The notes under the pieces: generated by a model
Databases searched by the model: none
Seen by the model: only the letters and a program-made list of their open reading frames with translations
What the model was told of the DNA's origin: nothing
Part shown: one piece after another, positions 34,749-63,002 of the stretch
How positions within the stretch are numbered: the stretch's first letter is position 1
Layout: the number at the start of each line of letters is the position of its first letter
Made by a program: the position numbers and the translations under genes
Source of the DNA: Alphaproteobacteria bacterium
GTDB lineage: Bacteria; Pseudomonadota; Alphaproteobacteria; GCA-2731375
NCBI GenBank assembly: GCA_965232515.1
Contig: CBDDPY010000002.1
Coordinates: 2,555,528-2,619,527 of the forward strand
Direction: 5' to 3'
DNA length: 64,000 nucleotides

Positions 34749-35690
34749 CTAGCCGCAGTCCGTCCGCTGCTTTTGCTGTTCCGCGTTGCTGCGGATGCGG
34801 TTATCGGCATCGGGAAAGCTGCGCAGCAGCTCGTTCCAGGTGTTGCACGCTTCGGCCGGCTGGCCCAGTTCGCGCAGCGTGATGCCAAGCTTCAGCAACG
34901 TATCCGGCGCTTTGGTGCTGGCCGGATACTGCTTGATGCCTTGCAGGAAAGCCGCTGCCGCGGCGTCGAATTGATTGCGCACATAGAACGTTTCGCCCAG
35001 CCAGTACTGGGCGTTCGCCGCCAGATCATCGTCGGGGTGCGCCGCAAGAAACTCCGTAAATGCTTGTTCCGCTCGGTCGAATTCAGACTTACGCAGTAAC
35101 GAGAAGGCGAAGTTGTAGCGCTCCATCGGCGAGCCGTCCGGCAACACCGTGCCGGGCGCGGCCGGCGCCGCCGCCGCCTGCTGCGTGCCTTCGCGTTGGC
35201 CCGCCGCGGCCTGAACCTGCTGTCCGAAGCCGGTCGCGGCCGGTGGCGCGGCTGGCGGCGAAACGCCGTCGGCCGCCGCTGCCCCAGCTTGGGGCGGCGC
35301 GCCCGCGCCGCGCTCCAGCTCGCCGAGGCGAAAGTCGACATCGCCAACCAGCTTGTCCAGCCGGGTGCTGATCTGCCGCAGCCTGAAGCTCACTTCTTCG
35401 ATGCGGCCGGTCAAGTTACGCAGCTCGTTCTCGAGCTGCGTCATCCGCACTTCGGCTTCGGCGATACGCGCCGTCGAGGGCGCCGAAAAACTGTCGGGCG
35501 ACCGGGCGGTCACACCGCCGCGCGGCGTCTCGCCGCGATAGACCAGAGGTTCGAGGTCGCGGAGACTACGCTCCAGACGCTCAATTCGATCGACCAGCGC
35601 ATCGACGTTCTGCGCCGTCGCCACATCGGGCTGAACGATCGCCGCGACGATTCCTACCATCGAGAAAAATAGCGTTGGTTTTCGGATCAT
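34749..35690 (-). CDS. cpoB: Tol-Pal system protein CpoB/YbgF
   Basis: Signal peptide MIRKPTLFFSMVGIVAAIVQPDVATAQ. Coiled-coil region. C-terminal TPR-like YbgF domain. Start taken at Met103 of the track ORF. Confidence 0.8.
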   Translation of the reverse strand: MIRKPTLFFSMVGIVAAIVQPDVATAQNVDALVDRIERLERSLRDLEPLVYRGETPRGGVTARSPDSFSAPSTARIAEAEVRMTQLENELRNLTGRIEEVSFRLRQISTRLDKLVGDVDFRLGELERGAGAPPQAGAAAADGVSPPAAPPAATGFGQQVQAAAGQREGTQQAAAAPAAPGTVLPDGSPMERYNFAFSLLRKSEFDRAEQAFTEFLAAHPDDDLAANAQYWLGETFYVRNQFDAAAAAFLQGIKQYPASTKAPDTLLKLGITLRELGQPAEACNTWNELLRSFPDADNRIRSNAEQQKQRTDCG

Positions 35691-35828
35691 GGCTCGGTTC
35701 CACCTGATCTGCCGCGGCGGCATGTCCAGTGGCGGCTCGACGGCAGACTGTCGAAAGAATGCGGCGAAAATACGATCACCCGCTCGCCTGCGGATCGGTT
35801 CGCGCCGATGCACCCAGGCCTCATGTCG

Positions 35829-35873
35829 GCGAAAACGAAAACGGGATGCTGGCTCGGAGCAGCCAGCATCCCG
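35829..35873 (-). terminator. rho-independent terminator downstream of pal
   Basis: Perfect 12-bp stem GGGATGCTGGCT-cggag-AGCCAGCATCCC on the minus strand, followed by GUUUUCGUUUUCG. Confidence 0.55.
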
Positions 35874-35913
35874 TCGAACTCGGAATTGGCGCTGGAAACG
35901 CAGCGCCGAAGCG

Positions 35914-36465
35914 CTAGTTGACGACGGCGACGCCGCGGCGGTTTTGCGACCAGCAGGCTTCGTTGTGAGCCACGCAGCCCGGCCGCTCCTTGCCATACGA
36001 TATCGTCGCTATCCGGTCGGGATTGACGCCAAGCGCGATCAGGTAATTTCTCGCCGACGTCGCCCGCCGCTCACCCAGCGCCAGGTTGTACTCGCGGGTA
36101 CCGCGCTCGTCGGCATGCCCTTCAACCGTGACCGTGACATCGGGATACTGCTTCAGCCAAGCGGCCCAGCGCTCGATGGTGGCGCGCGATTGCGGCTTCA
36201 AATCGAATTTGTCGAAATCATAAAAAACGCGGTCGCCCACATTCTCGACAAAGTCTTCGTAGCTGCCGGGTGTCGGACCAGCCGGCGCCTGGGTCGAAGA
36301 CACGGACGGCGACGTCGTGGTCGTCGTCTGCGTGCTGGTCGTCTGCTGAGCGCCGCCCTGCCCGCTGGTATCGGCGGACTCCTCCGGTGCGGTTTCGCAC
36401 GCGGCTACAAGCAAAACCGCCGCGGCAAGACAAATGCCTTTTAACCCAAATTTTTCAAAGCGCAT
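35914..36465 (-). CDS. pal: peptidoglycan-associated lipoprotein Pal
   Basis: Lipobox LLVAAC. Ser/Thr-rich linker. OmpA-like C-terminal domain with NRRGVAVVN. Confidence 0.9.
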   Translation of the reverse strand: MRFEKFGLKGICLAAAVLLVAACETAPEESADTSGQGGAQQTTSTQTTTTTSPSVSSTQAPAGPTPGSYEDFVENVGDRVFYDFDKFDLKPQSRATIERWAAWLKQYPDVTVTVEGHADERGTREYNLALGERRATSARNYLIALGVNPDRIATISYGKERPGCVAHNEACWSQNRRGVAVVN

Positions 36466-36628
36466 CAAGGAGGCTCCTTTTGACCGCTGACGCAAAGTGT
36501 CCCGGAGATGAGTAACGAGGATTACTTACAGTACCCGGCAAACGCTCCGACAATCTGCCCTCATTCCCATTTAACTGCGTCACCGGGAGTTGATACCTGC
36601 ATTTGCGCCGGAATGTACTTAGATATGG

Positions 36629-37996
36629 TTAACGATTCAAGGGTGATAGCGGTGACCAAGCGGGATCTGAAGCGTCGATCGGTGTCATTATTTCGCGATC
36701 GTTGTAACCGGTAAGGTCCACGGACCAGAGACGCGTGCTGCCGCCGTTGCCCTGATTGTCGGACGGCTCCTGCCGAAAGAACATCAGGACCCGGCCGTTC
36801 GGGGCCCAAGTCGGCCCTTCGACAAGAAAACTCTCGGCCAAAAGGCGTTCGCCGCTGCCATCGACGCGCATCACGCCGATGAAGAAGCGGCCTTTTGAAA
36901 TCTTCGTAAAGGCGATCAGATCGCCACGCGGCGACCAGACGGGTGTTGCATATCTGCCATCACCGAAGGAAATCCGCTGTACGCCGCTGCCGTCGGCGTT
37001 CATCACGTAGAGCTGCTGACTGCCGCCGCGGTCGGAATTGAAAACGATTCGGCTCCCGTCCGGCGAATAGCACGGCGACGTATCGATCGCTGGATGGCTC
37101 GTCAGTTGCTGAATCTGGCGGGTCCGGAGGTCCATCACATAGACATCGGAATTGCCGTTCCGCGCCAGACTCATGATCACCCGGTTGCCGTCCGGCGAGA
37201 AGCGCGGCGCGAAGGTCATGCCGGGGAAGTCGCCGAGGACTTCCTGCTTGCCGGTATCGATGTTGTAGAGATACACGCGCGGCTTCTCGGCGATGTACGA
37301 CAGATAGGTAATCTCCTGCCGCGTCGGCGAGAAGCGCGGCGTCAGCACCAGGTGGCCGCCATCTGTCAGGAAACGATGGCCGGCGCCGTCCTGATCCATT
37401 ATCGCCAGGCGTTTGACCCGGCGGTCGGCCGGCCCGCTCTCGGCGATGTAGACGACCCGCGTGTCGAAATAGCCTTCCTCGCCGGTCAGACGCTTATAGA
37501 TCGCATCCGAAATTATGTGCGCGATCCGCCGCCAGTTGCCGGGTGTCGTGAAGTAGACGAGGCCCGTCATCTGCTCGCCGGCCAGCACGTCCCAAAGACG
37601 GAACTCGACGCGCAGCCGCCCGTCCGGCTGCAGCTCGACCTTGCCGGTGACCAGCGCCTGGGCATTCAGCACCCGCCAATCGGCGAACCGCGGCTGCACC
37701 TGCATCGATTCTGGTTTCTGTATGAACGACGACGGATTGAGCGGGCGAAACAGACCCGATCTTTCCAAGTTGTTGGTGATGACGCCGGAGATGTCCTTGC
37801 CCGTCTGCGCGGAAGCGCCCCCCGGGTTGAAGAACTCGGGGAGCGCGATCGGCAGGGGATCGACGTTGCCCTGGGTAATGTCGATTTCCAGCGCGGCGCG
37901 CGCGGGTCCGCCGGCCAACAGCACCAGCAATGCAACCGCGGTCAGTACGCGCGTGCGCCAGACCGGTATCTGCAGAAGGCTACGATCCAGGATCAT
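36629..37996 (-). CDS. tolB: Tol-Pal system beta-propeller protein TolB
   Basis: Signal peptide, TolB N-terminal domain and WD40-like beta-propeller repeats (PRFSPDG, YSPDG, WSPRG). Confidence 0.92.
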
Positions 37997-38904
37997 CCTT
38001 GCAACATCTCCTTCGGGTTGAAGGTCAGCGTGATCTCGCGCCAACGCTCATACTTTGTGACCGGCAGGTTCTTCAAGGGGCTGCACTTCTGCACGGCGCG
38101 GCGCGCGCTCTCCGCGGCGACCCGGAAGAACTCCTCGCCCGGCCGAGTCATGCGCCCGCCATCGATGATCTCGGGCGGCCGGGCGAGCGAACCATCCGGC
38201 TTGAGAAAGATCCTGATCTGAACGATCAGGTTCTCGGCATCTCGCGCGCCGGCGGGTATCGACCAGCATTGCTGGATCTGAAACCGGATCGCGTCGATCT
38301 CGCTCATCGTCAACGGCTGGTCCGAACTCAGCGCCACTCGTGGCGTCGGCTTCCGTTCGGCCTGCGCCGCCTTCGCCGTTGTCTCCGCCGCCTTGGCGAC
38401 GGGCTGTTTCTGATCCTTCATGCGCTTGTCAAGCAGCGCGGCGATACGGTCGGCACTGAAGCGCTTCTCCGGCTTGACCGGTTTGGTCCGCGGCTTCGGC
38501 GCCTTGGAGAGGTCGACCGGCTTGGCCTGCGGTTCGGGTTTCGGTTTCGGCTTGGGTTCCGGCTTCGGCACCTCCGCCAGTTCCTTCGGCTTCGGTTCCG
38601 GCTTCGGCGCCGGCGGCGTCGGCTTCGCTTCCGGCGGGGCCGGCGGCGGCGGCGCTGGCGCGGCCACGGGCTCGGGCGGCTTCGGCGGCGGCTTCTTCTC
38701 GACCTCGACTTCCTTGACGGGCTCCGGCTCGGGTTCCGGCTCCGGCGGCGCCTGGCTGGTGGTGACTTCGTCGACCGTCACCAGTTCGACCAGCAATGGC
38801 TGTGTCTCGAGCTCGTCAGGTTGGAACAGGCTGGGCAGACCGAACACCGCAAGTACGATCATGCTGACATGCAGCATGGCGGATATGATCAGCCCGTTAC
38901 GCAA
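37993..38904 (-). CDS. tolA: cell envelope integrity protein TolA
   Basis: N-terminal TM anchor [18 protein letters not shown]. Long Pro/Glu/Lys-rich linker. C-terminal TolA domain. Overlaps tolB by 4 nt. Confidence 0.75.
38499..38754 (-). repeat. low-complexity PEPK-type repeat tract inside tolA
   Basis: Repeated PEPEPEPEP and [12 protein letters not shown] codon tracts, visible as ccggagccc/ccgaagccg periodicity. Confidence 0.5.
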
Positions 38905-38913
38905 CGGTTCGCC

Positions 38914-39357
38914 CTAATTGTCCACGGTCGGCGCCTCGGCAACGAGCGCGACCTTGTTGAAACCGGCGGCATTGATCGTGCTCATCACCGTCATCACCCG
39001 GCCATAGTCGATGGCGCGGTCGCCGCGGACGAAGATCCGCGTTTCGCCGTTGCGGGTCTGGGCGATCGCCTGTAGGCGCGGCACCAGCTCCGACATCTCG
39101 ATTTCGGTCTCCTGCAGAAAGACCTTGCCGGCGGTATCGACCGTGATGGTCAACGGCTCTTCCGAACCCTGCAGGTTCTGCGCGCTGGCTTTCGGCAGGT
39201 CGACCGGCACGCCGACGGTCAACAGCGGCGCGGTGATCATGAACACGACCAGCAGCACCAGCATGACGTCGACGAACGGCGTGATGTTGATCTCGGACAT
39301 CGGCCGATGCCGGGCCGACGCGCTGCGCGCCTTGGCATGACGCATAAAGACCGCCAT
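38914..39357 (-). CDS. tolR: Tol-Pal system protein TolR (ExbD family)
   Basis: MSEINITPFVDVMLVLLVVFMI is the ExbD/TolR signature. The alternative start at 39300 gives the canonical N-terminus. Confidence 0.85.
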   Translation of the reverse strand: MAVFMRHAKARSASARHRPMSEINITPFVDVMLVLLVVFMITAPLLTVGVPVDLPKASAQNLQGSEEPLTITVDTAGKVFLQETEIEMSELVPRLQAIAQTRNGETRIFVRGDRAIDYGRVMTVMSTINAAGFNKVALVAEAPTVDN

Positions 39358-40091
39358 CAGCCCTGCCTCTCCTCGAGTTGACGCGACAGGATGGCCGAGA
39401 ACTCGCCGACGAAGCCGTCGAGGCGATTGGCGTAGCGGCCGAGATCGTCGGAGAACTTGTTGTAGGCGACCACGGCCGGGATCGCGGCGATCAGGCCCAG
39501 CGCCGTCGCGAACAAAGCTTCCGCGATGCCGGGCGCGACGACGGCTAGGTTGGTGTTCTTGCTGAGCGCGATCGACTGGAAGCTGTTCATGATGCCCCAG
39601 ACGGTGCCGAACAGGCCGATGAACGGCGCCGTCGAGCCGACGGTCGCCAGGAAGCCGAGATAGCGTTCCAGCCGCTGCATCTCGCGGTCCATGGTCACCT
39701 GCATGACCTGACCGATGCGTTCCTTGATGCCGGCACGGAGCGACTGCTCATTGCCGATCCCCTTGGCGGTCGACCGGCGCCATTCGCGCATGGCGGACGC
39801 GAACAGGATCTCCATCGGGTGATCGGGTCTGGCGCCGATATGGTCGTAGAGGTCCTCGAGGCTTCCGCCGGACCAGAACGAGTCTTCGAACTCGTCGGCC
39901 TGCGCGCGCAGACGGCGGAAGCGCAGCCACTTCTCGAAGATGATCGCCCAGCACCAGACGGAGGCGACGAGAAGCAGCAGCATCACCGCTTTGACGACGA
40001 AATCTGCTTTCAGGAACAGGCCCCATAACGACATGTCTACGTCCGCTACCGAGCCCGCTAGAGCGAGGGCATCAACCGCTTGGTTTTCCAT
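39357..40091 (-). CDS. tolQ: Tol-Pal system protein TolQ
   Basis: MotA/TolQ/ExbB signature LATVGSTAPFIGLFGTVWGIMNSF. Three TM helices. One-nt overlap (TGATG) with tolR. Confidence 0.9.
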   Translation of the reverse strand: MENQAVDALALAGSVADVDMSLWGLFLKADFVVKAVMLLLLVASVWCWAIIFEKWLRFRRLRAQADEFEDSFWSGGSLEDLYDHIGARPDHPMEILFASAMREWRRSTAKGIGNEQSLRAGIKERIGQVMQVTMDREMQRLERYLGFLATVGSTAPFIGLFGTVWGIMNSFQSIALSKNTNLAVVAPGIAEALFATALGLIAAIPAVVAYNKFSDDLGRYANRLDGFVGEFSAILSRQLEERQG

Positions 40092-55187: not shown

Positions 55188-56564
55188 ATGCGCGGCGCCT
55201 TTCGCCTCAATGGCCATCGGGCCATCAAATCCTGCCGCTTGACCATGGCTGCCGCAGCTTCCGTCGGCATCTGGCTGTCGACGACGGTCATGGCGCAGAA
55301 CACCTATACCGTCGGCGCCGGCGGGCGGCCTAGTGTCGAAATCGATCTCGGCGTCGTCGACGCACCGGCCGGCCAGCGGCCAATCACGGTCGCGCCGGGT
55401 CTGGCGCCCATCGGGTCGCTGCCGCAGCAGCAGTTGCTGTATCCGAATGAGCGGAGCGCCGGTCGGATCACCCTGACGCCGCCAGGCAGCCGCAACGCCC
55501 CGACCTTGCGTCGGCCGCCGCAACGCAGCGCGCCAGCCATGGCCGCGGTGCCGCGGACGCCGGTGTTGTCCGCGCCGATCCCGGCATCGAAGCCGCAGGC
55601 GGTTGCGGCGGCGCCGGCCCCGACGCCACCGCCCGCCCTCAGAGCCCCGGCGCCGGTTCGCACCGCGGCGCCAGCGGCAGCCGCCCCTTCGGCGCCGCCG
55701 CCACGGGCTGACGCGGACACGACCGCCGCATTGAGATCGACCGCCCCACGCATCGACACCACCCGGCAGTCGCCGCCGCCATCGGCGCCGAAAGTGGCCT
55801 CGAAGGCGCCGGTCGCGCCGTCGCCGACCGCCGCTTTTCCGCCGCCGCCCGCGCCGTTGAGCAAACCACCGGCGACGTCGGCGAGACCGCTGCCTGCCGC
55901 GCCGCAACCGAAACCGCCACCGGCGGCCGAAGCAGCGCCACCGACACAGATCGCCGCGGCGCCGCCACCGGCAGCGGCGCTTCCGCGGCCGCCGGCGACG
56001 TCGGCTGCACCGTCAACGACGACGCCGGTTGTCGCCGCACCGCCACCTCCACCACCGCCGCCCCTGCCGGCCGTCAGCACGTCGAGTCCCGCGCCGGCCA
56101 ATCAGGACGACGTCCCCAGCGTGCCCAGGGGCCAGGTCACGGCCGCGCCGCTGACGGCCGCCGAACCCGCACCGACGGCGGCGACGGCGCCCACTCCGGC
56201 CAGGGACAGCACCCCGACCGAGGCCACGCGGATGGTCGCGCTGCCGCCGGCCGGCGGCGATATCCTGCAAGTCGAGTTCGCGCAGGGAAGCTCGGCATTG
56301 TCCCGCGACATCGAATCGAAGCTGGGCGCGCTCGCGGCGCAGCTGAAGGCCACCGACGCCCGGCTGCAACTCAAGGCCTTCGCCAGCACGAACGGCGACA
56401 ACATCAGCCGGGCCCGTCGCCTGTCGCTGTCGCGGGCGCTCGCCGTGCGGTCGTTCCTGATCGAGCAAGGTCTGCGCAGCACCCGGATCGATGTCCGCGC
56501 CCTGGGCATCGCCCGTGACGGCGGCGCGAGCGACCGCGTCGACGTCGTGCTGCTGTCCCCCTAG
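55188..56564 (+). CDS. Pro/Ala-rich envelope protein with C-terminal OmpA/MotB-like peptidoglycan-binding domain
   Basis: Long signal peptide ending TTVMAQ. ~230-aa PAPT-type low-complexity tract. C-terminal OmpA-like region ARRLSLSRALAVRSFLIEQGLRSTRIDVRALG...DRVDVVLLSP. The start is ambiguous (55188 or 55245). Confidence 0.6.
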   Translation: MRGAFRLNGHRAIKSCRLTMAAAASVGIWLSTTVMAQNTYTVGAGGRPSVEIDLGVVDAPAGQRPITVAPGLAPIGSLPQQQLLYPNERSAGRITLTPPGSRNAPTLRRPPQRSAPAMAAVPRTPVLSAPIPASKPQAVAAAPAPTPPPALRAPAPVRTAAPAAAAPSAPPPRADADTTAALRSTAPRIDTTRQSPPPSAPKVASKAPVAPSPTAAFPPPPAPLSKPPATSARPLPAAPQPKPPPAAEAAPPTQIAAAPPPAAALPRPPATSAAPSTTTPVVAAPPPPPPPPLPAVSTSSPAPANQDDVPSVPRGQVTAAPLTAAEPAPTAATAPTPARDSTPTEATRMVALPPAGGDILQVEFAQGSSALSRDIESKLGALAAQLKATDARLQLKAFASTNGDNISRARRLSLSRALAVRSFLIEQGLRSTRIDVRALGIARDGGASDRVDVVLLSP

Positions 56565-56615
56565 CGGCGGCGGCACCGCAGCACATCTCCGCAAATACAT
56601 TGGCGAGGTGACTCC

Positions 56616-57755
56616 TTGACGAAACCGACCCGCTACCTGACGCGCATGATCATCTTTATCATCGCCGTGGTGGCGGTATCCGGCGTCCTCTTCGGTCCGA
56701 TCGCGCGCGCCTTCCAGGCCAACCCGCCACTCAACGGAATGATCATCGCGGTGCTGCTGTTCGGCGTCGTCTATGCATTCCGGCAGGTCGCAAATCTAAG
56801 GCCGGAGGTCGAATGGATCGAGACCTTCCGCCGCTCGGAACCCGGCCTGTCGATCACCGCCGCGCCGGTTCTGCTGGCGCCCATGGCAACCATGCTGGGC
56901 GAGCGTCAGGGCCGGGTCTCGTTGTCCGCGCTGTCGATGCGCTCACTGCTCGACAGCATCGGCGCGCGCCTCGACGAACGCCGCGACATCGTCCGCTATC
57001 TCACCGGCCTGCTGGTCTTCCTCGGGCTGCTGGGCACGTTCTGGGGCCTGCTGAACACCGTCAACGCGGTCGGTGACACGATCGGCAACCTGTCGCCCGC
57101 GGTTGGCGATTTCGGCACCTTCTTCAGCGAGCTGCAGACCGGCCTGGAGTCGCCGTTAAGCGGCATGGGCATCGCCTTCTCGTCCTCGCTTTTCGGCCTC
57201 TCGGGCAGCCTGGTTCTGGGTTTCCTCGAATTGCAGGCGAGCCAGGCGCAGAACCGCTTCTATCTCGATCTCGAGGAATGGCTGTCGACGCGCACGCGCC
57301 TGTCCAGCGGTTCGAGCCTGGCGGAAGGCGATCAGTCCGTGCCGGTCTATGTGCAGGCGCTCCTCGAACAGACCGCCGACAGCCTGGAAAACCTGCAACG
57401 CACCATCGCGCGGGCCGAGGACAGCCGATCGTCGGGCCAGACGGCCATGCTGACGCTGTCGGAACGCCTCGCCACGCTCACCGACCAGATGCACAGCGAG
57501 CAGGACCTGATGGCCAGGCTGGTCGAGCATCAGATGGAGATGAAGCCCGTGCTGCAGCGCATCGCGCAGGGCGCCGACCAGGCGTCGGCCGGGCTCGACG
57601 ATGCCAGCCGCAATCACCTGCGCAACCTCGATGTCTATGTGATGCGCCTGCTCGAGGAGATGAGCGAGGGCCGCAACCAGACCATCGCCGAGCTGCGCAG
57701 CGAGATCAAACTGCTGGCCCGCACCATCGCCGCGCTCGGCGAAGAACGGCGTTGA
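56616..57755 (+). CDS. MotA/TolQ/ExbB proton-channel family protein with ~170-aa C-terminal coiled-coil tail
   Basis: Four predicted TM helices (IIFIIAVVAVSGVLFG, MIIAVLLFGVVYAF, LTGLLVFLGLLGTFWGLL, GMGIAFSSSLFGLSGSLVLGFL). Family signature LGLLGTFWG...MGIAFSSSLFGL. TTG start preceded by GAGGTG. Confidence 0.7.
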   Translation: MTKPTRYLTRMIIFIIAVVAVSGVLFGPIARAFQANPPLNGMIIAVLLFGVVYAFRQVANLRPEVEWIETFRRSEPGLSITAAPVLLAPMATMLGERQGRVSLSALSMRSLLDSIGARLDERRDIVRYLTGLLVFLGLLGTFWGLLNTVNAVGDTIGNLSPAVGDFGTFFSELQTGLESPLSGMGIAFSSSLFGLSGSLVLGFLELQASQAQNRFYLDLEEWLSTRTRLSSGSSLAEGDQSVPVYVQALLEQTADSLENLQRTIARAEDSRSSGQTAMLTLSERLATLTDQMHSEQDLMARLVEHQMEMKPVLQRIAQGADQASAGLDDASRNHLRNLDVYVMRLLEEMSEGRNQTIAELRSEIKLLARTIAALGEERR

Positions 57756-57782
57756 CGGCGCGGCCGTCATTGGCAGCCGGCC

Positions 57783-59117
57783 ATGCGTCCGCGATCGCGT
57801 AGCGAATCAGCCAGCTACTGGCCGGGTTTCGTCGATGCCCTGACCACGCTGCTGCTGGTCATCATCTTCCTGCTGGTCGTGTTCGTGCTGGCTCAGGTCG
57901 TGCTCAGCAGCGCCATTACCGGCAAGGACGAGGCGCTGGACCGCCTCAATCGGCAGGTCTCGGAACTCGCCGACCTGCTGGCGCTGGAACGGCAGGACAA
58001 CGCCAATCTGCGGCTCGACGTGGCGCAGCTGTCGAGCTCGCTGCAGACAGCCGTCTCCGAACGCGACGAATTGGTGTTGTCGTTGCAGCGCATGACCGAC
58101 CGCGCGGGCGAACTGGAGCGCCGGGCCGAGGCGGCCGAAACGGCGCTCGCCGAGGCCGAGGCGACGGTTACCGCCAGCAAGGAGACGCTTGAGCTGCGCT
58201 TGCGCGAGATGGCGAGCCTGCGTCGCGACATCGCCGCGTTACGCGAGCTTCGCTCGGATCTCGAGAGCCGCATCGGACAGCTCACCGGCAATCTCGAGGA
58301 GAGCCGCACCGAGGTTGGCTCGCTCCGAGACCGCACCAAGGAGCTCGAGGCGCAACTGGCCGACGCCGAGGAGCGGACGCTGCTGGCGCAGAAGGAAATC
58401 GCCGACCGCGACGTGCGCCTGTCCGAGTTGCTGGACCTCTATCAGCGCCTGGACGAGGACTATGCCGCCGAGCAGAAGCTGAGCGGCGAACAGCGGGCGC
58501 AGATCGGGCGGCTGAACCAGCAGATCCTGGCCCTGCGGCAGGAGCTGCAGAAGCTCAACGCGGCGCTCGACGCCGCCGAGCTGAAAGACCAGGAAAGCGA
58601 GGCCGTGATCGCCGATCTCGGCAAGCGCCTGAACCGGGCGCTCGCCGGCAAGGTCGAGGAACTGTCGCGCTACCGCTCGGAATTCTTCGGCCGGCTGCGC
58701 GAGGTGCTGGGGAGCCGCCGCGACATTCAGATCGTTGGCGATCGCTTCGTGTTCCAGTCGGAAGTGCTGTTCGACAGCGGCTCGGCCGAGCTGGAACCGG
58801 AAGGCCGGGCGCAACTGGCGCAACTCGCCGAGACGCTGTTGGAGATTTCCCAGCGTATCCCGGGCGAAATCAACTGGATCCTGCGCGTCGACGGCCATAC
58901 CGACAGCCGGCCGATCGCCACCGCCAGGTTCCCATCGAACTGGGAGCTCTCGGCCGCCCGGGCCATCTCGGTGACGAAATTCCTGGTTGATCAGGGCGTG
59001 CCGTCGGAACGCCTGGCCGCGACCGGTTTCGCGGCCTTCCAGCCGCTCGACGACCGCTACGACGAAATCGCCTACCGCCGCAACCGGCGCATCGAATTGA
59101 AGCTAACGCAACGTTAG
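57783..59117 (+). CDS. MotB-like OmpA-family protein with ~270-aa periplasmic coiled coil
   Basis: N-terminal MotB plug/TM SYWPGFVDALTTLLLVIIFLLVVFVL. A long heptad-rich ELE/LRE region follows. C-terminal OmpA domain with FDSGSAEL, NWELSAARA, NRRIELKL. Confidence 0.75.
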   Translation: MRPRSRSESASYWPGFVDALTTLLLVIIFLLVVFVLAQVVLSSAITGKDEALDRLNRQVSELADLLALERQDNANLRLDVAQLSSSLQTAVSERDELVLSLQRMTDRAGELERRAEAAETALAEAEATVTASKETLELRLREMASLRRDIAALRELRSDLESRIGQLTGNLEESRTEVGSLRDRTKELEAQLADAEERTLLAQKEIADRDVRLSELLDLYQRLDEDYAAEQKLSGEQRAQIGRLNQQILALRQELQKLNAALDAAELKDQESEAVIADLGKRLNRALAGKVEELSRYRSEFFGRLREVLGSRRDIQIVGDRFVFQSEVLFDSGSAELEPEGRAQLAQLAETLLEISQRIPGEINWILRVDGHTDSRPIATARFPSNWELSAARAISVTKFLVDQGVPSERLAATGFAAFQPLDDRYDEIAYRRNRRIELKLTQR

Positions 59118-59124
59118 AACGGAG

Positions 59125-60936
59125 TTAGTTGCCCGCGACAATGCGCGGTGTCGGGACCGCCTGGCCGGTCTCGAACTGCAGCGCCGCCAGGTGCGCGTAA
59201 AGCCCGTCGCGCTGGATCAGTTCCGCGTGCGTGCCGGTTTCGACGATGGCGCCCTGATCCATGACCACGATGCGGTCGGCCCGCAGCACCGTTGCCAGCC
59301 GGTGGGCGATGACGACGGTCGTGCGGTCCGCCATCAGCTTTTCCAGCGCCGCCTGCACCATGCGCTCGCTCTCGGCGTCGAGGGCGCTGGTCGCTTCGTC
59401 CAGCAACAGCACGGACGGATTGCGCAGGATCGCCCGCGCGATGGCGATGCGCTGACGCTGGCCGCCCGACAGCCGGACGCCGCGCTCGCCCAGGAACGTC
59501 TCGAACCCGTCCGGCAGCTCGTCGATAAAGGCGGCGGCGTTCGCCGCCACCGCCGCGGCCCTGACCTCGTCGTCGCTCGCCTCGGGCCGGCCGTAGCGGA
59601 TGTTCTCGAAGGCGTTGGCGGCGAAGATCACCGGATCCTGCGGCACCAGGCCCAGCCGGCTGCGCAGCGCCTGCGGCTCGACGGCGGCGATGTCGACATC
59701 GTCCAGCAGGATTTGCCCGGACTGCGGATCGAAGAACCGAAGCAGCAGTTGGAAGATCGTGCTCTTGCCGGCGCCGGATGGCCCGACCAGCGCCACGGTC
59801 TCGCCGGGCGCGATCGTCAGATCGAAGTCGATGACGGCGGCCTGCTCCGGCCGCGAGGGATAGTTGAACCCGACGGCCTCGAAGGTGACGGCCCCGCGCG
59901 CCGGCTCGGGCAGCGGCAACGGTTGCGCCGGCGCTGCGATTTCCGGCTCGATATCGAGCAACTGCATCAACCGCTCGGCGGCCCCGGCCGCGCGCTGCAG
60001 GTCGCCGAACACCTCGGACAGGGCGCCGAGCGCGCCGGCAACGACGATCGCATAGAACACGAAGGCCGCCAGCTCGCCGCCCGACATCACGCCCTCGACC
60101 ACGTCCTTGGCGCCGATCCAGACCACCAGATCGACCGCGCCGAAGACCAGCAGCATGACCATGGCCGTCATCCAGGCCCGTGCCCGGGTGCGCTTAACCG
60201 CGGTGTCGAAGGCCGACGTCGTGACCTCGGCGAACCGCGCCCGGTCGATCGCCTCGTGCACGAAGGCCTGCACGATCTGCACGGCGTTGAGACTTTCGCC
60301 GGCATGACTGCTGATATCGGCCACGCGGTCCTGGCTCGCCCGTGACAATCGCCGGACCTTGCGCCCGAAAATCACGATCGGCAGGATCACGACCGGCAGC
60401 ATCAGGAACACGAGGCCCGTCAGCTTCGGGCTGGAAATCACCAGCAACACCGAGCCGCCGAGAAACAGCAGCAGGTTGCGCATCGCCACCGAGGCGGTCG
60501 AGCCGACCACGGTCTGGATCAGGGTGGTGTCGGCGGTCAGCCGCGACAGCACCTCGCCGGTCCGCGTGGTCTCGAAGAAGGCGGGGCTGAGGCCGATGAC
60601 ATGGTCGTAAACGGCCTTGCGGATGTCGGCGACCACCCGCTCGCCCAGCCATGTCACCAGGTAGAAGCGCATAAACGTGGCGGCGGCAAGCACCGCGACC
60701 ACGCCCAACAATCCGATGAAGTACTGGTCGATCAGATGAGCATCTTCGGCGAAGCCGTGGTCGACCACCCGGCGGATCGCCTGGCCGATGGCCAGCACCG
60801 CGCCGGCGGCGATGATCAGCGCCACCAGGGCGCCCAGCATGACGTGAATGTAGGGCCGCACGAACGGCCCCAGCCGCCGCAGCCCGGTCAGACGCCGATC
60901 GCCCGACGTGTCCTCAACTCCCGACTTGTCGCTCAC
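59125..60936 (-). CDS. ABC transporter ATP-binding/permease protein (MsbA-like type I exporter)
   Basis: Six TM helices in the N-terminal half. Walker [13 protein letters not shown] signature [14 protein letters not shown]. Walker [12 protein letters not shown]. Confidence 0.9.
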
Positions 60937-61084: not shown

Positions 61085-61306
61085 ATGAAGAAAGAAATCC
61101 ACCCCGAATACCACGAAATCACCGTGGTCATGACGGACGGTACCGAGTTCAAGACCCGCTCGACCTATGGCAGCGCCGGGGATGTCCTGAAGCTGGATAT
61201 CGATCCCAACACGCATCCGGCCTGGACCGGCGGCCCCCAGCGCGTGCTCGAAACCGGCCGCGTGGCGCGGTTCCGCAACAAGTTCAAGGATTTCAATCTG
61301 GGCTGA
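61085..61306 (+). CDS. rpmE: 50S ribosomal protein L31
   Basis: [27 protein letters not shown]... is a canonical L31. Confidence 0.92.
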
Positions 61307-61324
61307 GCGGCGGCGGCACCCACG

Positions 61325-61744
61325 TCAGGGGCGGCTGTTCCGGGCCACGATCTCGTCCAGGCGCGCGATCCGCGCGTACAGGCCCTCGCTTCGATCCAAA
61401 AGCTCAAGCAGATCCCGCGGCAATCCCGCCGTCGGCAGGGGACCTTCGGCCAGGCAGACGGTCTGGCCGCCCAAGCGCCAATTTTCGGACGCCAGCTCTT
61501 CGGAGGCAATTTCGCCCGCATGGGCCGCCCGCTGCACGATCAGCCAGGCCATCACCTGGGTCAGGCGTGACGTCAGCCGCATGCTCTCGACGCTGTAGGC
61601 GAGGCCACGGTCGACCGGCAGTCCGGAGGCATCCCGCTGCCCCTTGACCGTCAGATAGTCCCGCGCCTCCTGCAGCAGGCGCAGGGCCTCATCAAAGGTT
61701 CGGCCGAAATAGACGGGATCGGCATCGCCGCCCACGGCCGGCAT
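61325..61744 (-). CDS. DUF1465 family protein
   Basis: 139 aa. YFGRTFDEALRLLQEARDYL... Lies next to rpmE, which is a common neighbourhood in Alphaproteobacteria. Confidence 0.6.
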   Translation of the reverse strand: MPAVGGDADPVYFGRTFDEALRLLQEARDYLTVKGQRDASGLPVDRGLAYSVESMRLTSRLTQVMAWLIVQRAAHAGEIASEELASENWRLGGQTVCLAEGPLPTAGLPRDLLELLDRSEGLYARIARLDEIVARNSRP

Positions 61745-61846
61745 CTCGACGTCCCGCAAAACCTGTCCCTCGTCTGCCGACGTGTGCCCGTGAATAGGTC
61801 GGATTATCGGCCGGAATCGTTAAGAAACTGGCCGGTTCGGACCGGT

Positions 61847-61874
61847 CTTGAATCGGCCGCGGACGGCCATATCT
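61847..61874 (+). promoter_or_regulatory. sigma-32 (RpoH)-type heat-shock promoter for the hsp20 pair
   Basis: CTTGAA (61847-61852), a 14-nt spacer, then CCATATCT (61867-61874). This matches the CTTGAA-N13-15-CCCCATnT consensus and sits ~110 nt upstream of the first hsp20 start. Confidence 0.5.
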
Positions 61875-61981
61875 AGAGGTTGTACCGGGTGCCGGATATG
61901 GGCCCGGGAACATCGCCGGCCCGGCCGAAAACGGCGGGCCACTGAAACGCTGGTATTGCTCATGAAGGAGGATATCAAGCC

Positions 61982-62413
61982 ATGCGTCGCTTTGACCTTA
62001 CCCCCCTCTATCGTTCTACGGTTGGTTTCGACCGCTTCAATCGCGTCTTTGATGCGATCGGCGGCCTCGATGCGCCGGCCCAGACCTACCCGCCCTACAA
62101 CATCGAAAAGTCCGGCGAGGATGCCTACCGCATCACCATGGCCGTCGCCGGCTTCCGCGAGGCGGATATCGACGTCACCGTGACCGACAGCACGCTGGTC
62201 ATCACCGGCAAGCAGATCGCCGATCAGGAAGGCGTCGAGTACCTGCACCGCGGCATCGCCGGACGCCCGTTCGAACGCCGGTTCGAGCTGGCCGACAGCA
62301 TCAAGGTCGTCGGTGGGCGGCTGGAGAACGGCCTGCTGCACGTCGATCTCGTCCGCGAGGTGCCGGAGCACAAGCGCCCGCGGCAGATCAAGATCGACGC
62401 CGTTGCGGCCTGA
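61982..62413 (+). CDS. Hsp20/alpha-crystallin family small heat-shock protein (IbpA-like)
   Basis: 143 aa. Alpha-crystallin domain YNIEKSGEDAYRITMAVAGF...LENGLLHVDL. Confidence 0.88.
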   Translation: MRRFDLTPLYRSTVGFDRFNRVFDAIGGLDAPAQTYPPYNIEKSGEDAYRITMAVAGFREADIDVTVTDSTLVITGKQIADQEGVEYLHRGIAGRPFERRFELADSIKVVGGRLENGLLHVDLVREVPEHKRPRQIKIDAVAA

Positions 62414-62510
62414 CGCCTCAACCAACCGTTAACCACAGCAACGTGATGGCCCCGCCGCTCGCGGGACGACAGGACGGGTGCGTCCGCCGGCGGGGCCCAT
62501 CCGGAATTCG

Positions 62511-63002
62511 ATGGAGTTGATCATGGCATCCAATCGCCTCGTTCCCTGGAACCGCCGCTTTCCGGCCTCAAGCCCGCTGTTCGGCGATCTGCAGCAGCAG
62601 ATCAACCGCCTGTTCGACGACGCCTGGGGCGGTGACGTGGCCTCGCCGCAGGCCGAAGGCATCGCGCATCTGACGCCCAGCATCGACGTCAGCGAAACCG
62701 ACGACGCCTATCACATCGACGCCGAACTGCCGGGCGCCGACGAAAAGGACATCGACGTCACGCTGACCGACGGCGTCCTCAGCCTGAAGGGCGAGAAGAA
62801 GGTCGAGTCCGAGCGAAAGGAGAAGAACGCGCTCGTCAAGGAACGCCGCTACGGCAGCTTCTTCCGCTCGTTCCGCCTGCCGCCCGAGGTCGACGTCGAC
62901 GGCATCCAGGCCAAGTTCGAGAAGGGCGTCCTGCACGTCACCGTGCCGAAAAAGCCGGAAGCGAAGCAGGCCACCAAACAGATCGAAATCAAGTCGTCGT
63001 AA
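62511..63002 (+). CDS. Hsp20/alpha-crystallin family small heat-shock protein
   Basis: ACD core DVSETDDAYHIDAELPGADEKDIDVTL...FEKGVLHVTVPK. Alternative start at 62523. Confidence 0.85.
   Translation: MELIMASNRLVPWNRRFPASSPLFGDLQQQINRLFDDAWGGDVASPQAEGIAHLTPSIDVSETDDAYHIDAELPGADEKDIDVTLTDGVLSLKGEKKVESERKEKNALVKERRYGSFFRSFRLPPEVDVDGIQAKFEKGVLHVTVPKKPEAKQATKQIEIKSS

What the first reader, a model, noticed from the sequence alone, without database searches (positions are those of the whole stretch)
55188..59117. Uncharacterised three-gene envelope module: Pro/Ala-rich OmpA-like protein, MotA/TolQ/ExbB-like channel with coiled-coil tail, MotB-like OmpA protein with a ~270-aa periplasmic coiled coil
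Three co-directional genes sit tightly between suhB and a convergent ABC exporter. The gaps between them are 51 and 27 nt. The middle gene has four TM helices and the MotA/TolQ/ExbB signature (LGLLGTFWG / GMGIAFSSSLFGL), plus an unusually long cytoplasmic coiled-coil C-terminus. The last gene has a MotB-type plug/TM (YWPGFVDALTTLLLVIIFLL), a very long heptad-repeat spacer, and only then an OmpA peptidoglycan-binding domain. This is neither the flagellar MotAB pair nor the Tol system, because tolQRA-tolB-pal are present elsewhere in the window. The architecture resembles stator-like ion-driven machines such as Zorya ZorAB, gliding Agl, or Tol/Exb paralogues, but no known effector gene (ZorC/D/E) follows. 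It may be an undescribed proton-motive envelope-spanning system whose extended coiled coils set a fixed periplasmic span or transmit force.
Basis: partly seen in the sequence, partly recalled or inferred. Interest (0 to 1): 0.62.

Follow-up and report, generated by a model that had tools for sequence, protein, structure and literature searches.

The report
Uncharacterised ZorAB-like envelope motor pair
Two adjacent genes, kept together in many Alphaproteobacteria, look like the channel and cell-wall anchor of an ion-driven membrane motor that nobody appears to have studied; it is not the flagellar stator, Tol, Ton or the Zorya phage defence.

The parts
56616..57755 (+). g2: A subunit (379 aa), a divergent member of the MotA/TolQ/ExbB/ZorA fold
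56646..56792 (+). g2 N-terminal TM hairpin (TM1 residues 11-29, TM2 residues 41-59), with a basic N-terminus on the cytoplasmic side
   Evidence: Hydropathy and AF2 helices 4-24 and 37-59. N40 is invariant, with W67 just downstream.
56988..57260 (+). g2 channel core: TM3 (LGLLGTFWGL, Thr141), a periplasmic loop, and TM4 (PLSGMGIAFSSSLFGL, Ser189-191)
   Evidence: G137, G140, T141, G144, P180, M184, F188 and G194 are invariant in 39 diverse homologues. Thr is present in 147 of 147 representatives carrying the motif, and SSS in 102. The region aligns with ZorA TM2/TM3, which carry Thr147/Ser184 (PMC11946911).
57345..57752 (+). g2 cytoplasmic tail: a helical hairpin (helices 244-323 and 329-378) after a disordered linker at 227-243
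   Evidence: AF2 secondary structure. Heptad power is above background. The base is conserved and the tip varies. Representatives carrying the motif (some are fragments) span 249-614 aa.
57783..59117 (+). g3: B subunit (444 aa), NCBIfam NF006543 / PRK09039 'peptidoglycan-binding protein'
   Evidence: NF006543 scores 459 bits against a cut-off of 305. PADLOC ZorB3 matches at 1.5e-26. The gene lies next to g2 in every locus whose contig reaches far enough, 35 of the 40 loci held.
57819..57905 (+). g3 TM helix with the WPGFVD motif (Asp18), preceded by a short Arg-rich cytoplasmic N-terminus
   Evidence: W13, P14, G15, V17 and D18 are invariant in 13 diverse homologues. The motif is present in all 35 locus-encoded homologues. 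Hydropathy peaks at residues 23-41.
57906..58709 (+). g3 periplasmic alpha-helical spacer (residues 42-309): two long helices with a break at 175-184, conserved ends and a variable middle
   Evidence: AF2 helices 14-174 and 185-309. No Pro occurs between residues 40 and 330, and the heptad signal covers 45-180 and 270-295. Alignment A3 shows conserved 45-100 and 225-310 (KVEELSRYRSEFFGRLREVLG) with insertions in between.
58725..59111 (+). g3 OmpA-like peptidoglycan-binding domain of the MotB/MotS/PomB type, with canonical DGHTD, SNWELSxARA and NRRIE motifs
   Evidence: Pfam OmpA scores 61 bits. The best PDB sequence match is MotS at 2.3e-19. Foldseek matches MotS at 7e-10 with 32% identity. 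The motifs are invariant.
55188..56564 (+). g1: a lineage-restricted neighbour with a signal peptide (residues 1-36, cleavage VMA/QN inferred), a Pro/Ala-rich region (27% Pro, 24% Ala over 41-340) and a C-terminal divergent OmpA-like domain (about 361-458)
   Evidence: Pfam OmpA scores 44 bits. The domain reads LQLKA[FY]A where canonical domains have GHTD, in all homologues. g1 is present in L001-L013, L030 and L037-L039, and absent in L016-L029, S. meliloti and Rudaea.

Best explanation
g2 and g3 encode the A (channel ring) and B (axle and anchor) subunits of an inner-membrane, ion-driven motor of the MotAB/TolQR/ExbBD/ZorAB '5:2' superfamily. They belong to a distinct, uncharacterised family that is kept as a chromosomal housekeeping pair in Alphaproteobacteria.

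Inferred mechanism: protons enter from the periplasm past Thr141 and Ser189-191 of g2 and reach Asp18 of g3. Protonation cycling makes the g2 ring turn relative to a g3 dimer. The g3 dimer is held to peptidoglycan by its canonical OmpA-like domain, at the end of a long helical spacer of evolutionarily plastic length. The g2 cytoplasmic helical hairpins would form a short bundle under the membrane and move with the ring. That bundle would couple the motor to a cytoplasmic or membrane partner not encoded in the operon. The most likely role is envelope-related force or signal transduction between the wall and the cell interior.

g1 is an accessory periplasmic protein found in only some lineages.

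Shown: homology, fold, conserved residues, topology, synteny and distribution. Inferred: stoichiometry, ion, rotation and biological role.
For: - Conserved residues: Thr141 is invariant in 147 of 147 representatives and the Ser triplet is dominant. The g3 WPGFVD Asp is kept in every full-length homologue examined. These correspond to ZorA Thr147/Ser184 and ZorB Asp26, shown by mutagenesis to be needed for Zorya function (PMC11946911).
- Wall anchor: the g3 domain keeps the canonical motifs and is closest to MotS/PomB/MotB.
- Adjacency: the two genes are tightly spaced, by 27 nt here, 2 nt in S. meliloti and 3 nt in Rudaea.
- Housekeeping character: suhB-A-B-msbA-like-rpmE-DUF1465 synteny runs from Rhodospirillales-like genomes to S. 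meliloti, with efp also upstream in the Rhodospirillales-like loci. Each of three searches returned at least 8000 clusters at 90% identity. There are 602 representatives at 50% identity below 1e-30. No phage hits were found, and the only 'plasmid' hits are chromosome-sized records (3.5-4.6 Mb) filed in the plasmid collection.
- Not flagellar: no NCBIfam MotA, PomA, TolQ or ExbB model hits g2 at E < 0.1, while the window's real TolQ scores 291 bits. S. meliloti has flagellar motA (SMc03022) elsewhere.
Against: - No experiment on any family member was found, so function is inferred.
- Sequence similarity to solved motors is marginal. A TM-only profile against PDB sequences gives ZorA E = 0.4 and ExbB E = 7.4. 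Pfam MotA_ExbB is below its threshold.
- The 5:2 stoichiometry and rotation could not be modelled, because only monomers can be predicted here.
- A spacer of 170 to about 850 aa is hard to fit into a simple axle-to-wall geometry. AF2 suggests a fold-back that would place the wall-binding domain near the membrane.
- The likely S. meliloti orthologues (SMc03993/SMc03992) are not in the essential-gene list that could be read, so any housekeeping role is dispensable in the two media used.
Confidence: 0.6

Rival explanations
1. The pair is a Zorya-type anti-phage module: a ZorAB sensor-motor whose effectors are encoded elsewhere or are unrecognised.
For: The only sequence matches of g2 to a characterised family are to ZorA (PADLOC ZorA1 2e-13; all 39 relatives hit ZorA1/ZorA3). 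PADLOC holds no other MotA-like models. g3 hits ZorB3 at 1.5e-26. The only solved homologue found by sequence is Shewanella ZorA. g2 has a helical cytoplasmic tail, as ZorA does.
Against: - No ZorC/D/E/F/G-like gene lies next to the pair in any locus.
- The pair sits in a conserved core-genome block, not a defence island.
- The NCBIfam ZorA models score 12.5-15 bits against cut-offs of 100-500.
- The tail is about 135 aa and hairpin-shaped, whereas EcZorA has a tail of about 500 aa and 70 nm whose length is required for defence.
- g3 carries a 235-aa helical insertion that ZorB lacks.
- No homologues were found in phages or true plasmids.
Confidence: 0.07
2. The pair is a second or alternative flagellar stator (of the MotAB, MotCD or PomAB type), as many database names suggest.
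For: Sources name homologues 'flagellar motor protein MotA' and 'chemotaxis protein MotB'. The g3 wall-binding domain is closest to MotS/PomB/MotB. g2 has a MotA-like 4-TM topology.
Against: - No NCBIfam MotA or PomA model hits g2 at E < 0.1.
- The TM2-TM3 cytoplasmic segment is only about 65 aa, which by my own recollection is shorter than the loop that forms the torque-generating domain in MotA.
- Pfam MotB_plug does not match.
- No flagellar genes lie in the window's neighbourhood or in any related locus.
- S. meliloti has flagellar motA SMc03022 inside the fli cluster as well as this pair.
Confidence: 0.05
3. The pair is a Tol/Ton-like energiser. The g2-g3 motor would power an extended periplasmic protein such as the Pro-rich g1, to act on the outer membrane or wall, as TolQR-TolA and ExbBD-TonB do.
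For: TolQ is the top fold match. g1 has a TonB-like Pro-rich region and sits 51 nt upstream. The g3 helical spacer recalls TolA domain II (my own recollection). A ChvI (envelope-stress regulator) bound fragment lies inside the likely S. meliloti orthologue SMc03993.
Against: - g1 has a cleavable-looking signal peptide rather than a TM anchor and is absent from many lineages that keep the pair.
- g3 ends in a MotB-type wall-binding domain, not a TolR/ExbD fold.
- No NCBIfam TolQ or ExbB hit was found.
- A full Tol-Pal cluster is already present in the window.
Confidence: 0.12
4. The pair is a static tether or scaffold between the inner membrane and the wall. The channel motifs would be relics and no ion-driven movement would occur.
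For: The helical spacer is very long, of variable length and expandable by repeats. That looks more like a structural linker than a rigid axle. The likely S. meliloti orthologues are absent from the essential list that could be read.
Against: Asp18, Thr141, the Gly/Pro framework of TM3/TM4 and the Ser triplet are strictly conserved across homologues down to about 37% identity. That indicates selection on the ion pathway.
Confidence: 0.1

Closest known systems
Zorya ZorA-ZorB (5:2 proton-driven motor of an anti-phage system; E. coli 8QYD, Shewanella 8VVN)
   Same: - ZorA and ZorB give the only sequence matches to a characterised family.
- The polar filter is the same (Thr in one TM helix, Ser in the next) and the B subunit has a TM Asp.
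- The B subunit ends in a peptidoglycan-binding domain.
- The A subunit continues into a cytoplasmic helical tail.
- The two genes are adjacent in A-then-B order.
   Different: - No ZorC-G effectors and no defence-island context; the pair sits in a core-genome syntenic position.
- The tail is about 135 aa and hairpin-like, against about 500 aa and 70 nm in ZorA.
- g2 has an extra N-terminal TM helix.
- g3 has an insertion of about 235 aa of helix between the TM helix and the wall-binding domain.
- NCBIfam ZorA scores are far below their cut-offs.
Flagellar stator MotAB / PomAB / MotPS
   Same: - The A subunit has 4 TM helices.
- The B-subunit motif around the Asp resembles, from memory, E. coli MotB YADFMTAMMAFF.
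- The wall-binding domain is most similar to MotS/PomB/MotB (32% identity to MotS).
   Different: - No match to any MotA or PomA model.
- No large cytoplasmic torque-generating domain.
- No plug match.
- No flagellar context.
- The pair coexists with a true motA in S. meliloti.
TolQ-TolR and ExbB-ExbD
   Different: - TolQ and ExbB have 3 TM helices; g2 has 4.
- The B subunit is not of the TolR/ExbD type.
- No TolA or TonB partner was found.
- The true TolQRAB-Pal-CpoB cluster lies at 34.7-40.1 kb of the same window.
NCBIfam NF006543 / PRK09039 'peptidoglycan-binding protein'
   Same: g3 is a full member (459 bits against a cut-off of 305).
   Different: The family carries a descriptive name only and no function. 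The window protein has about 95 extra residues in the helical spacer relative to the 350-aa model.

Membership tests
MotA/TolQ/ExbB/ZorA superfamily (A subunit of 5:2 motors) | Characteristic fold: a TM helix pair lining the B-subunit axle, plus peripheral helix or helices | tested here: met
MotA/TolQ/ExbB/ZorA superfamily (A subunit of 5:2 motors) | Pfam PF01618 match above the gathering score | tested here: not met
   19 bits against 22.9 for the window protein. 31 of 39 relatives match at E < 0.01, best 1e-8.
MotA/TolQ/ExbB/ZorA superfamily (A subunit of 5:2 motors) | Conserved polar Thr/Ser ion filter on the two inner TM helices | tested here: met
   Thr141 in 147 of 147 representatives; Ser189 nearly invariant and Ser191 invariant in A2.
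MotA/TolQ/ExbB/ZorA superfamily (A subunit of 5:2 motors) | Adjacent B-subunit gene with a single TM helix carrying an essential Asp | tested here: met
   g3 WPGFVD is present in every full-length homologue, and the genes are adjacent wherever the contig allows.
MotA/TolQ/ExbB/ZorA superfamily (A subunit of 5:2 motors) | A5B2 stoichiometry and ion-driven rotation | not testable with these tools
   Only monomer prediction is available. This needs AlphaFold-multimer, cryo-EM or biophysics.
Zorya ZorAB | Match to curated ZorA models above their cut-offs | tested here: not met
   NCBIfam ZorA_2/3/4 score 12.5-15 bits against cut-offs of 100-500. PADLOC ZorA1 gives 47.9 bits, but PADLOC has no curated cut-off.
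Zorya ZorAB | Associated effector genes (ZorC/D, ZorE, ZorF/G) in the same locus | tested here: not met
   The neighbours are suhB/g1 upstream and a convergent MsbA-related ABC exporter downstream. No PADLOC hit was found for g1.
Zorya ZorAB | Very long pentameric cytoplasmic tail (about 500 aa in EcZorA) | tested here: not met
   The tail spans residues 244-378 as a predicted hairpin. ZorA tail data come from PMC11946911.
Flagellar stator MotAB/PomAB | Match to MotA or PomA family models | tested here: not met
   No NCBIfam MotA or PomA hit at E < 0.1 for g2.
Flagellar stator MotAB/PomAB | MotB plug/TM region (Pfam PF13677) | tested here: not met
   Not among the Pfam hits at E < 0.1 for g3. 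The helix simply continues into the spacer.
Flagellar stator MotAB/PomAB | Peptidoglycan-binding OmpA-like C-terminal domain on the B subunit | tested here: met
   Pfam OmpA 61 bits; MotS 2.3e-19; Foldseek MotS 7e-10.
Flagellar stator MotAB/PomAB | Being the stator used by the flagellum (genomic or functional link to fla genes) | tested here: inconclusive
   No fla genes lie in the window or the related loci, and S. meliloti has a separate motA SMc03022. The rest of this 7.3-Mb genome could not be searched.
TolQR / ExbBD | Match to TolQ/ExbB and TolR/ExbD equivalog models | tested here: not met
   No hit for g2 or g3. The window's real TolQ and TolR score 291 and 138 bits.
NCBIfam NF006543 (PRK09039) peptidoglycan-binding protein | Score above the curated cut-off over the full length | tested here: met
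   459 bits against 305, in two stretches because of the longer spacer.
OmpA-like peptidoglycan-binding domain (g1) | Pfam PF00691 match and the canonical Asp (GxTD) and Arg (LSxxRA) ligands | tested here: inconclusive
   The Pfam score is 44 bits against a cut-off of 27.2 and the Arg is kept. The GxTD Asp is replaced (LQLKA[FY]A) in all g1 homologues. Binding was not tested.

The most novel reading that the evidence does not exclude
This is a core-genome, housekeeping cousin of Zorya's ZorAB, possibly related to its evolutionary source. It would be a proton-driven rotary motor, present in Alphaproteobacteria since before the Rhodospirillales-Hyphomicrobiales split. It would read the state of the cell wall through a long helical B-subunit arm whose length changes by repeat expansion, and turn a short cytoplasmic tail bundle to signal or do work inside the cell. 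That would make it a sixth functional class of 5:2 motor, after flagellar, Ton, Tol, gliding/T9SS and Zorya.
Probability: 0.25. Interest if true: 0.8.

Novelty: new variant of a known kind. Interest (0 to 1): 0.58.

Why it matters
Each known class of 5:2 ion-driven motor (flagellar stators, Ton, Tol, gliding/T9SS, Zorya) opened up a distinct piece of envelope biology. This pair is a sixth, structurally distinct architecture: a short hairpin tail on A, and a very long helical arm plus wall anchor on B. It is widespread in Alphaproteobacteria, including the genetically tractable Sinorhizobium meliloti (probably SMc03993/SMc03992). No paper on it turned up in the searches I could run.

Three things follow:
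- The question can be tested directly, with deletions, Asp18Asn mutants, cryo-EM and tail pull-downs.
- It supplies a non-defence relative against which the origin and mechanism of Zorya can be compared.
- It corrects the common mis-annotations 'flagellar motor protein MotA' and 'chemotaxis protein MotB'.

Tried and rejected
- Literature. None returned a paper on this family. The CC3292 guess and the organism-name search were uninformative.
- Reviews of 5:2 motors and of MotAB evolution do not mention the family.
- The afdb50 fold library was unavailable, so model-organism orthologues could not be named through UniProt.
- The look-up of encoding contigs could not return the window's own genome, so its organism and any other motAB remain unknown.
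- A full-length profile search of PDB sequences was swamped by coiled-coil hits. I repeated it with a TM-only profile.
- Self-BLAST for repeats in long g3 homologues returned nothing. The repeats were found by reading Gly/Pro periodicity instead.
- The Tn-seq main table of PMC5929573 was truncated in storage, so no fitness values for SMc03993/92 were obtained.
- Rejected readings. A fixed-length periplasmic ruler is rejected because of length plasticity. An obligate three-gene module is rejected because g1 is absent in many lineages. A mobile or defence element is rejected because of core synteny and the lack of phage or true plasmid hits.

Full report
**1. The observation**

ORF listing confirms three co-directional genes: g1 at 55188-56564, g2 at 56616-57755 and g3 at 57783-59117. 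The gaps between them are 51 and 27 nt.

- g2 starts at a TTG, with a GAGGTG Shine-Dalgarno 5 nt upstream. Its N-terminus (MTKP...) matches the start of homologues.
- Upstream lie efp and suhB. Downstream, 7 nt away and convergent, lies an ABC exporter that passes the NCBIfam TIGR02204 'MsbA_rel' cut-off.
- A Tol-Pal cluster sits at 34.7-40.1 kb on the minus strand. TolQ, TolR and TolB pass their cut-offs, and TolA gives only a weak match. pal and cpoB were read from the sequence.
- The genes are not chance ORFs. Homologues reach E = 1e-231 for g2 and 1e-265 for g3, the latter including a 100% identical protein from a 7.33-Mb contig.

**2. Anatomy of g2**

Hydropathy gives four TM helices (11-29, 41-59, about 125-149, 186-204). 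An AF2 model built on 39 diverse homologues is confident (pLDDT 83). It shows the TM helices, a small cytoplasmic segment between TM2 and TM3, a disordered linker (227-243) and a C-terminal helical hairpin (244-323 and 329-378).

- Foldseek against the PDB returns only A subunits of 5:2 motors in its top 50: TolQ, ExbB, ZorA and MotA.
- At sequence level the family is very divergent. Pfam MotA_ExbB scores 19 bits, below its 22.9 cut-off. No NCBIfam MotA, PomA, TolQ or ExbB model hits at E < 0.1. A TM-only profile finds only Shewanella ZorA (E = 0.4) and ExbB (E = 7.4) among PDB sequences.
- The only robust sequence matches are PADLOC ZorA models. ZorA1 matches the window protein at 2e-13, and all 39 relatives hit ZorA1 and ZorA3. 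PADLOC holds no other MotA-like models, so this library cannot compare ZorA with rival families.
- Conservation is concentrated in TM3 and TM4. G137, G140, T141, G144, P180, M184, F188 and G194 are invariant. Thr141 is present in 147 of 147 representatives, and the triplet SSS in 102.
- In EcZorA the equivalent Thr147/Ser184 form the ion filter facing ZorB Asp26, and the double mutant and D26N abolish function (PMC11946911).

**3. Anatomy of g3**

A short Arg-rich N-terminus is followed by one TM helix containing WPGFVD. That motif, with its Asp, is kept in every full-length homologue examined. Residues 42-309 have no proline and are predicted helical, with a break at 175-184. The heptad signal is strong over 45-180 and 270-295 and weak between.

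- The C-terminal domain keeps the canonical DGHTD, SNWELSxARA and NRRIE motifs. It is most similar to the MotS, PomB and MotB periplasmic domains, with sequence E = 2.3e-19 and Foldseek E = 7e-10 at 32% identity.
- g3 passes NCBIfam NF006543 (PRK09039.1-2, 'peptidoglycan-binding protein') at 459 bits against a cut-off of 305. The family is catalogued but carries only a descriptive name.
- Pfam MotB_plug does not match.
- g3 also resembles ZorB3 (1.5e-26), with the TM helix and wall-binding domain aligned and about 235 aa of helix inserted between them.

**4. The unit is two genes**

A scan of one genome per species returned 36 loci. In every locus whose contig extends far enough, a g3 homologue follows g2 directly.

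- Related Rhodospirillales-like genomes share the block tkt-gap-fba-thiE-efp-suhB-[g1]-A-B-msbA-like(convergent)-(frataxin)-rpmE-DUF1465/RcdA-HSP20.
- S. meliloti has thiE-sel1-suhB-A-B-ABC(convergent)-rpmE-DUF1465, read from a chromosome mislabelled as pSymB.
- A gammaproteobacterial group (Rudaea and other Lysobacteraceae) has only the pair, between uvrD and mazG.
- g1 homologues occur only in the nearer relatives and in an Acetobacteraceae MAG. They are absent from S. meliloti, the L016-L029 clade and Rudaea.
- g1 has a signal-peptide-like N-terminus and a region of 27% Pro and 24% Ala. Its conserved OmpA-like domain reads LQLKA[FY]A where canonical domains have GHTD, so the Asp ligand is missing in the whole g1 family.

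**5. Size and spread of the family**

Each of three word-indexed searches returned 8000 or more clusters at 90% identity. The exhaustive search found 602 representatives at 50% identity with E < 1e-30. Source names point to Rhodospirillales, Hyphomicrobiales, Minwuiales, Acetobacteraceae and unclassified Alphaproteobacteria. Product names are 'hypothetical', 'flagellar motor protein MotA', 'chemotaxis protein MotB' or 'peptidoglycan-binding protein'. I could not test Caulobacterales, Rhodobacterales, Sphingomonadales or Rickettsiales. No homologue was found in phages, and the only 'plasmid' hits are chromosome-sized records of 3.5-4.6 Mb.

**6. The spacer is not a ruler**

B-subunit homologues form continuous ORFs of 342 aa (S. 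meliloti), 354-361 aa (Rudaea group), 439-481 aa (steps of 14 aa, that is two heptads), 692 aa and up to 1013 aa. The ends of the helical region are conserved and the middle is variable. The longest forms contain ten or more near-identical 28-aa repeats, each ending in GG (DLQTRNRTLDAEVAQLTEALADAEARGG). Another form has a 123-aa unit in triplicate.

Fully extended, these arms would span roughly 25 to more than 100 nm (my own arithmetic). ZorAB work quotes about 9 nm from membrane to wall in E. coli. So the arm must tilt, lie in the plane of the membrane or fold back. AF2's two-helix prediction is compatible with a fold-back, but a monomer model cannot decide. The g2 tail shows the same pattern of conserved base and variable tip. 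Representatives carrying the motif, some of them fragments, range from 249 to 614 aa.

**7. Functional hints**

- S. meliloti gene order places the orthologues at SMc03993/SMc03992. The order runs thiE2 = SMc03996, SMc03995, suhB = SMc03994. This assignment is inferred from gene order.
- Those two genes are not among the essential genes in the supplementary list that could be read, whereas SMc03994 and SMc03995 are (PMC5929573).
- A ChvI-bound DNA fragment lies inside SMc03993 (PMC3687685). This is a weak link to the alphaproteobacterial envelope-stress regulon.
- Flagellar motA is SMc03022, within the fli cluster.

**8. Interpretation**

The best-supported reading is a proton-driven motor of the 5:2 superfamily, forming its own ZorAB-related family and inherited as a housekeeping pair. 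Homology, fold, conserved ion-path residues, topology, wall-binding motifs, operon structure and synteny are shown. Stoichiometry, ion, rotation and role are inferred.

Four rivals are each contradicted by specific tests set out above: a Zorya defence module, a flagellar stator paralogue, a Tol/Ton-type energiser with g1 as transducer, and a static tether. None can be fully excluded without experiments.

**9. Novelty and score**

The kind (a MotAB-like motor) is known, and large numbers of uncharacterised 'generic ion transporter' homologues have been noted (PMC12505986). This particular architecture, its relation to ZorAB and its core-genome status in Alphaproteobacteria were not found in the literature I could search. 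Only open-access papers and bioRxiv were covered, so subscription papers may have been missed.

I rate it a new variant of a known kind, with interest 0.58. It would not upend the field, but it is a concrete, widespread and genetically tractable unknown.

Noticed in passing
window 59125-60936 (-): An MsbA-related ABC exporter (NCBIfam TIGR02204, 873 bits against a cut-off of 780) lies convergent with g3, only 7 nt between the two stop codons. The same convergent pairing is kept in most of the nearer relatives and in S. meliloti, where the gene ends overlap. It could be neutral synteny or a functional link.
   Followed up: partly
L029:9246-12284 (g3 homologue, 1013 aa); also L016-L023: The periplasmic arm holds ten or more near-identical 28-aa tandem repeats (DLQTRNRTLDAEVAQLTEALADAEARGG), each ending in Gly-Gly. 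This implies recent repeat expansion and possibly a segmented rather than continuous helix.
   Followed up: partly
P0347 (g3 homologue, 657 aa): A unit of about 123 aa covering the whole first helix (FLGEALSGRDAALQKLENQVSELADLLALERK...) is present three times in tandem. The arm may be built from modules of about 125 aa.
   Followed up: no
window 55188-56564 (g1) and homologues in L001-L013, L030, L037: The OmpA-like domain of g1 passes the Pfam cut-off, but the GxTD aspartate is replaced throughout its family (LQLKA[FY]A). It may not bind peptidoglycan in the usual way. GC content reaches 0.76 across the Pro/Ala-rich part.
   Followed up: partly
L040 (CP090106.1, PLSDB 'pSymB' of S. meliloti Ak57): This 3.72-Mb 'plasmid' record carries purE, rpmE, suhB and other core genes and is evidently the chromosome. 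The other four hits (three Sinorhizobium records and one Shinella, 3.5-4.6 Mb) look mislabelled in the same way.
   Followed up: no
S. meliloti SMc03993 (inferred orthologue of g2): A DNA fragment bound by the envelope-stress regulator ChvI lies inside this gene (PMC3687685, fragment F10). The neighbouring sel1-repeat gene SMc03995 and suhB SMc03994 are essential in Tn-seq, whereas the pair is not listed as essential.
   Followed up: partly
window 34749-40091 (-): A Tol-Pal cluster: cpoB, pal (lipobox LLVAAC), tolB, tolA, tolR and tolQ. The tolA match is only weak, at 39.7 bits against a cut-off of 59.45.
   Followed up: partly
window 61085-63002: rpmE is followed by an RcdA-like (DUF1465) gene on the minus strand that scores below the NCBIfam cut-off (98 against 170 bits), and by two adjacent ORFs that by position match the HSP20 gene seen in relatives. 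rpmE and DUF1465 follow the pair in most of the nearer relatives and in S. meliloti.
   Followed up: no
L030:8001-10634 (Acetobacteraceae MAG): The g2 homologue is split across reading frames, and the middle of the g3 ORF looks scrambled. These are probably assembly errors rather than pseudogenes.
   Followed up: no
window 57351-57617 (g2 residues 246-334): The g2 tail gives a weak, non-significant match to the methyl-accepting chemotaxis protein signalling domain (Pfam MCPsignal, E = 0.014). The ZorA tail tip was also reported to resemble the chemoreceptor signalling bundle (PMC11946911).
   Followed up: no
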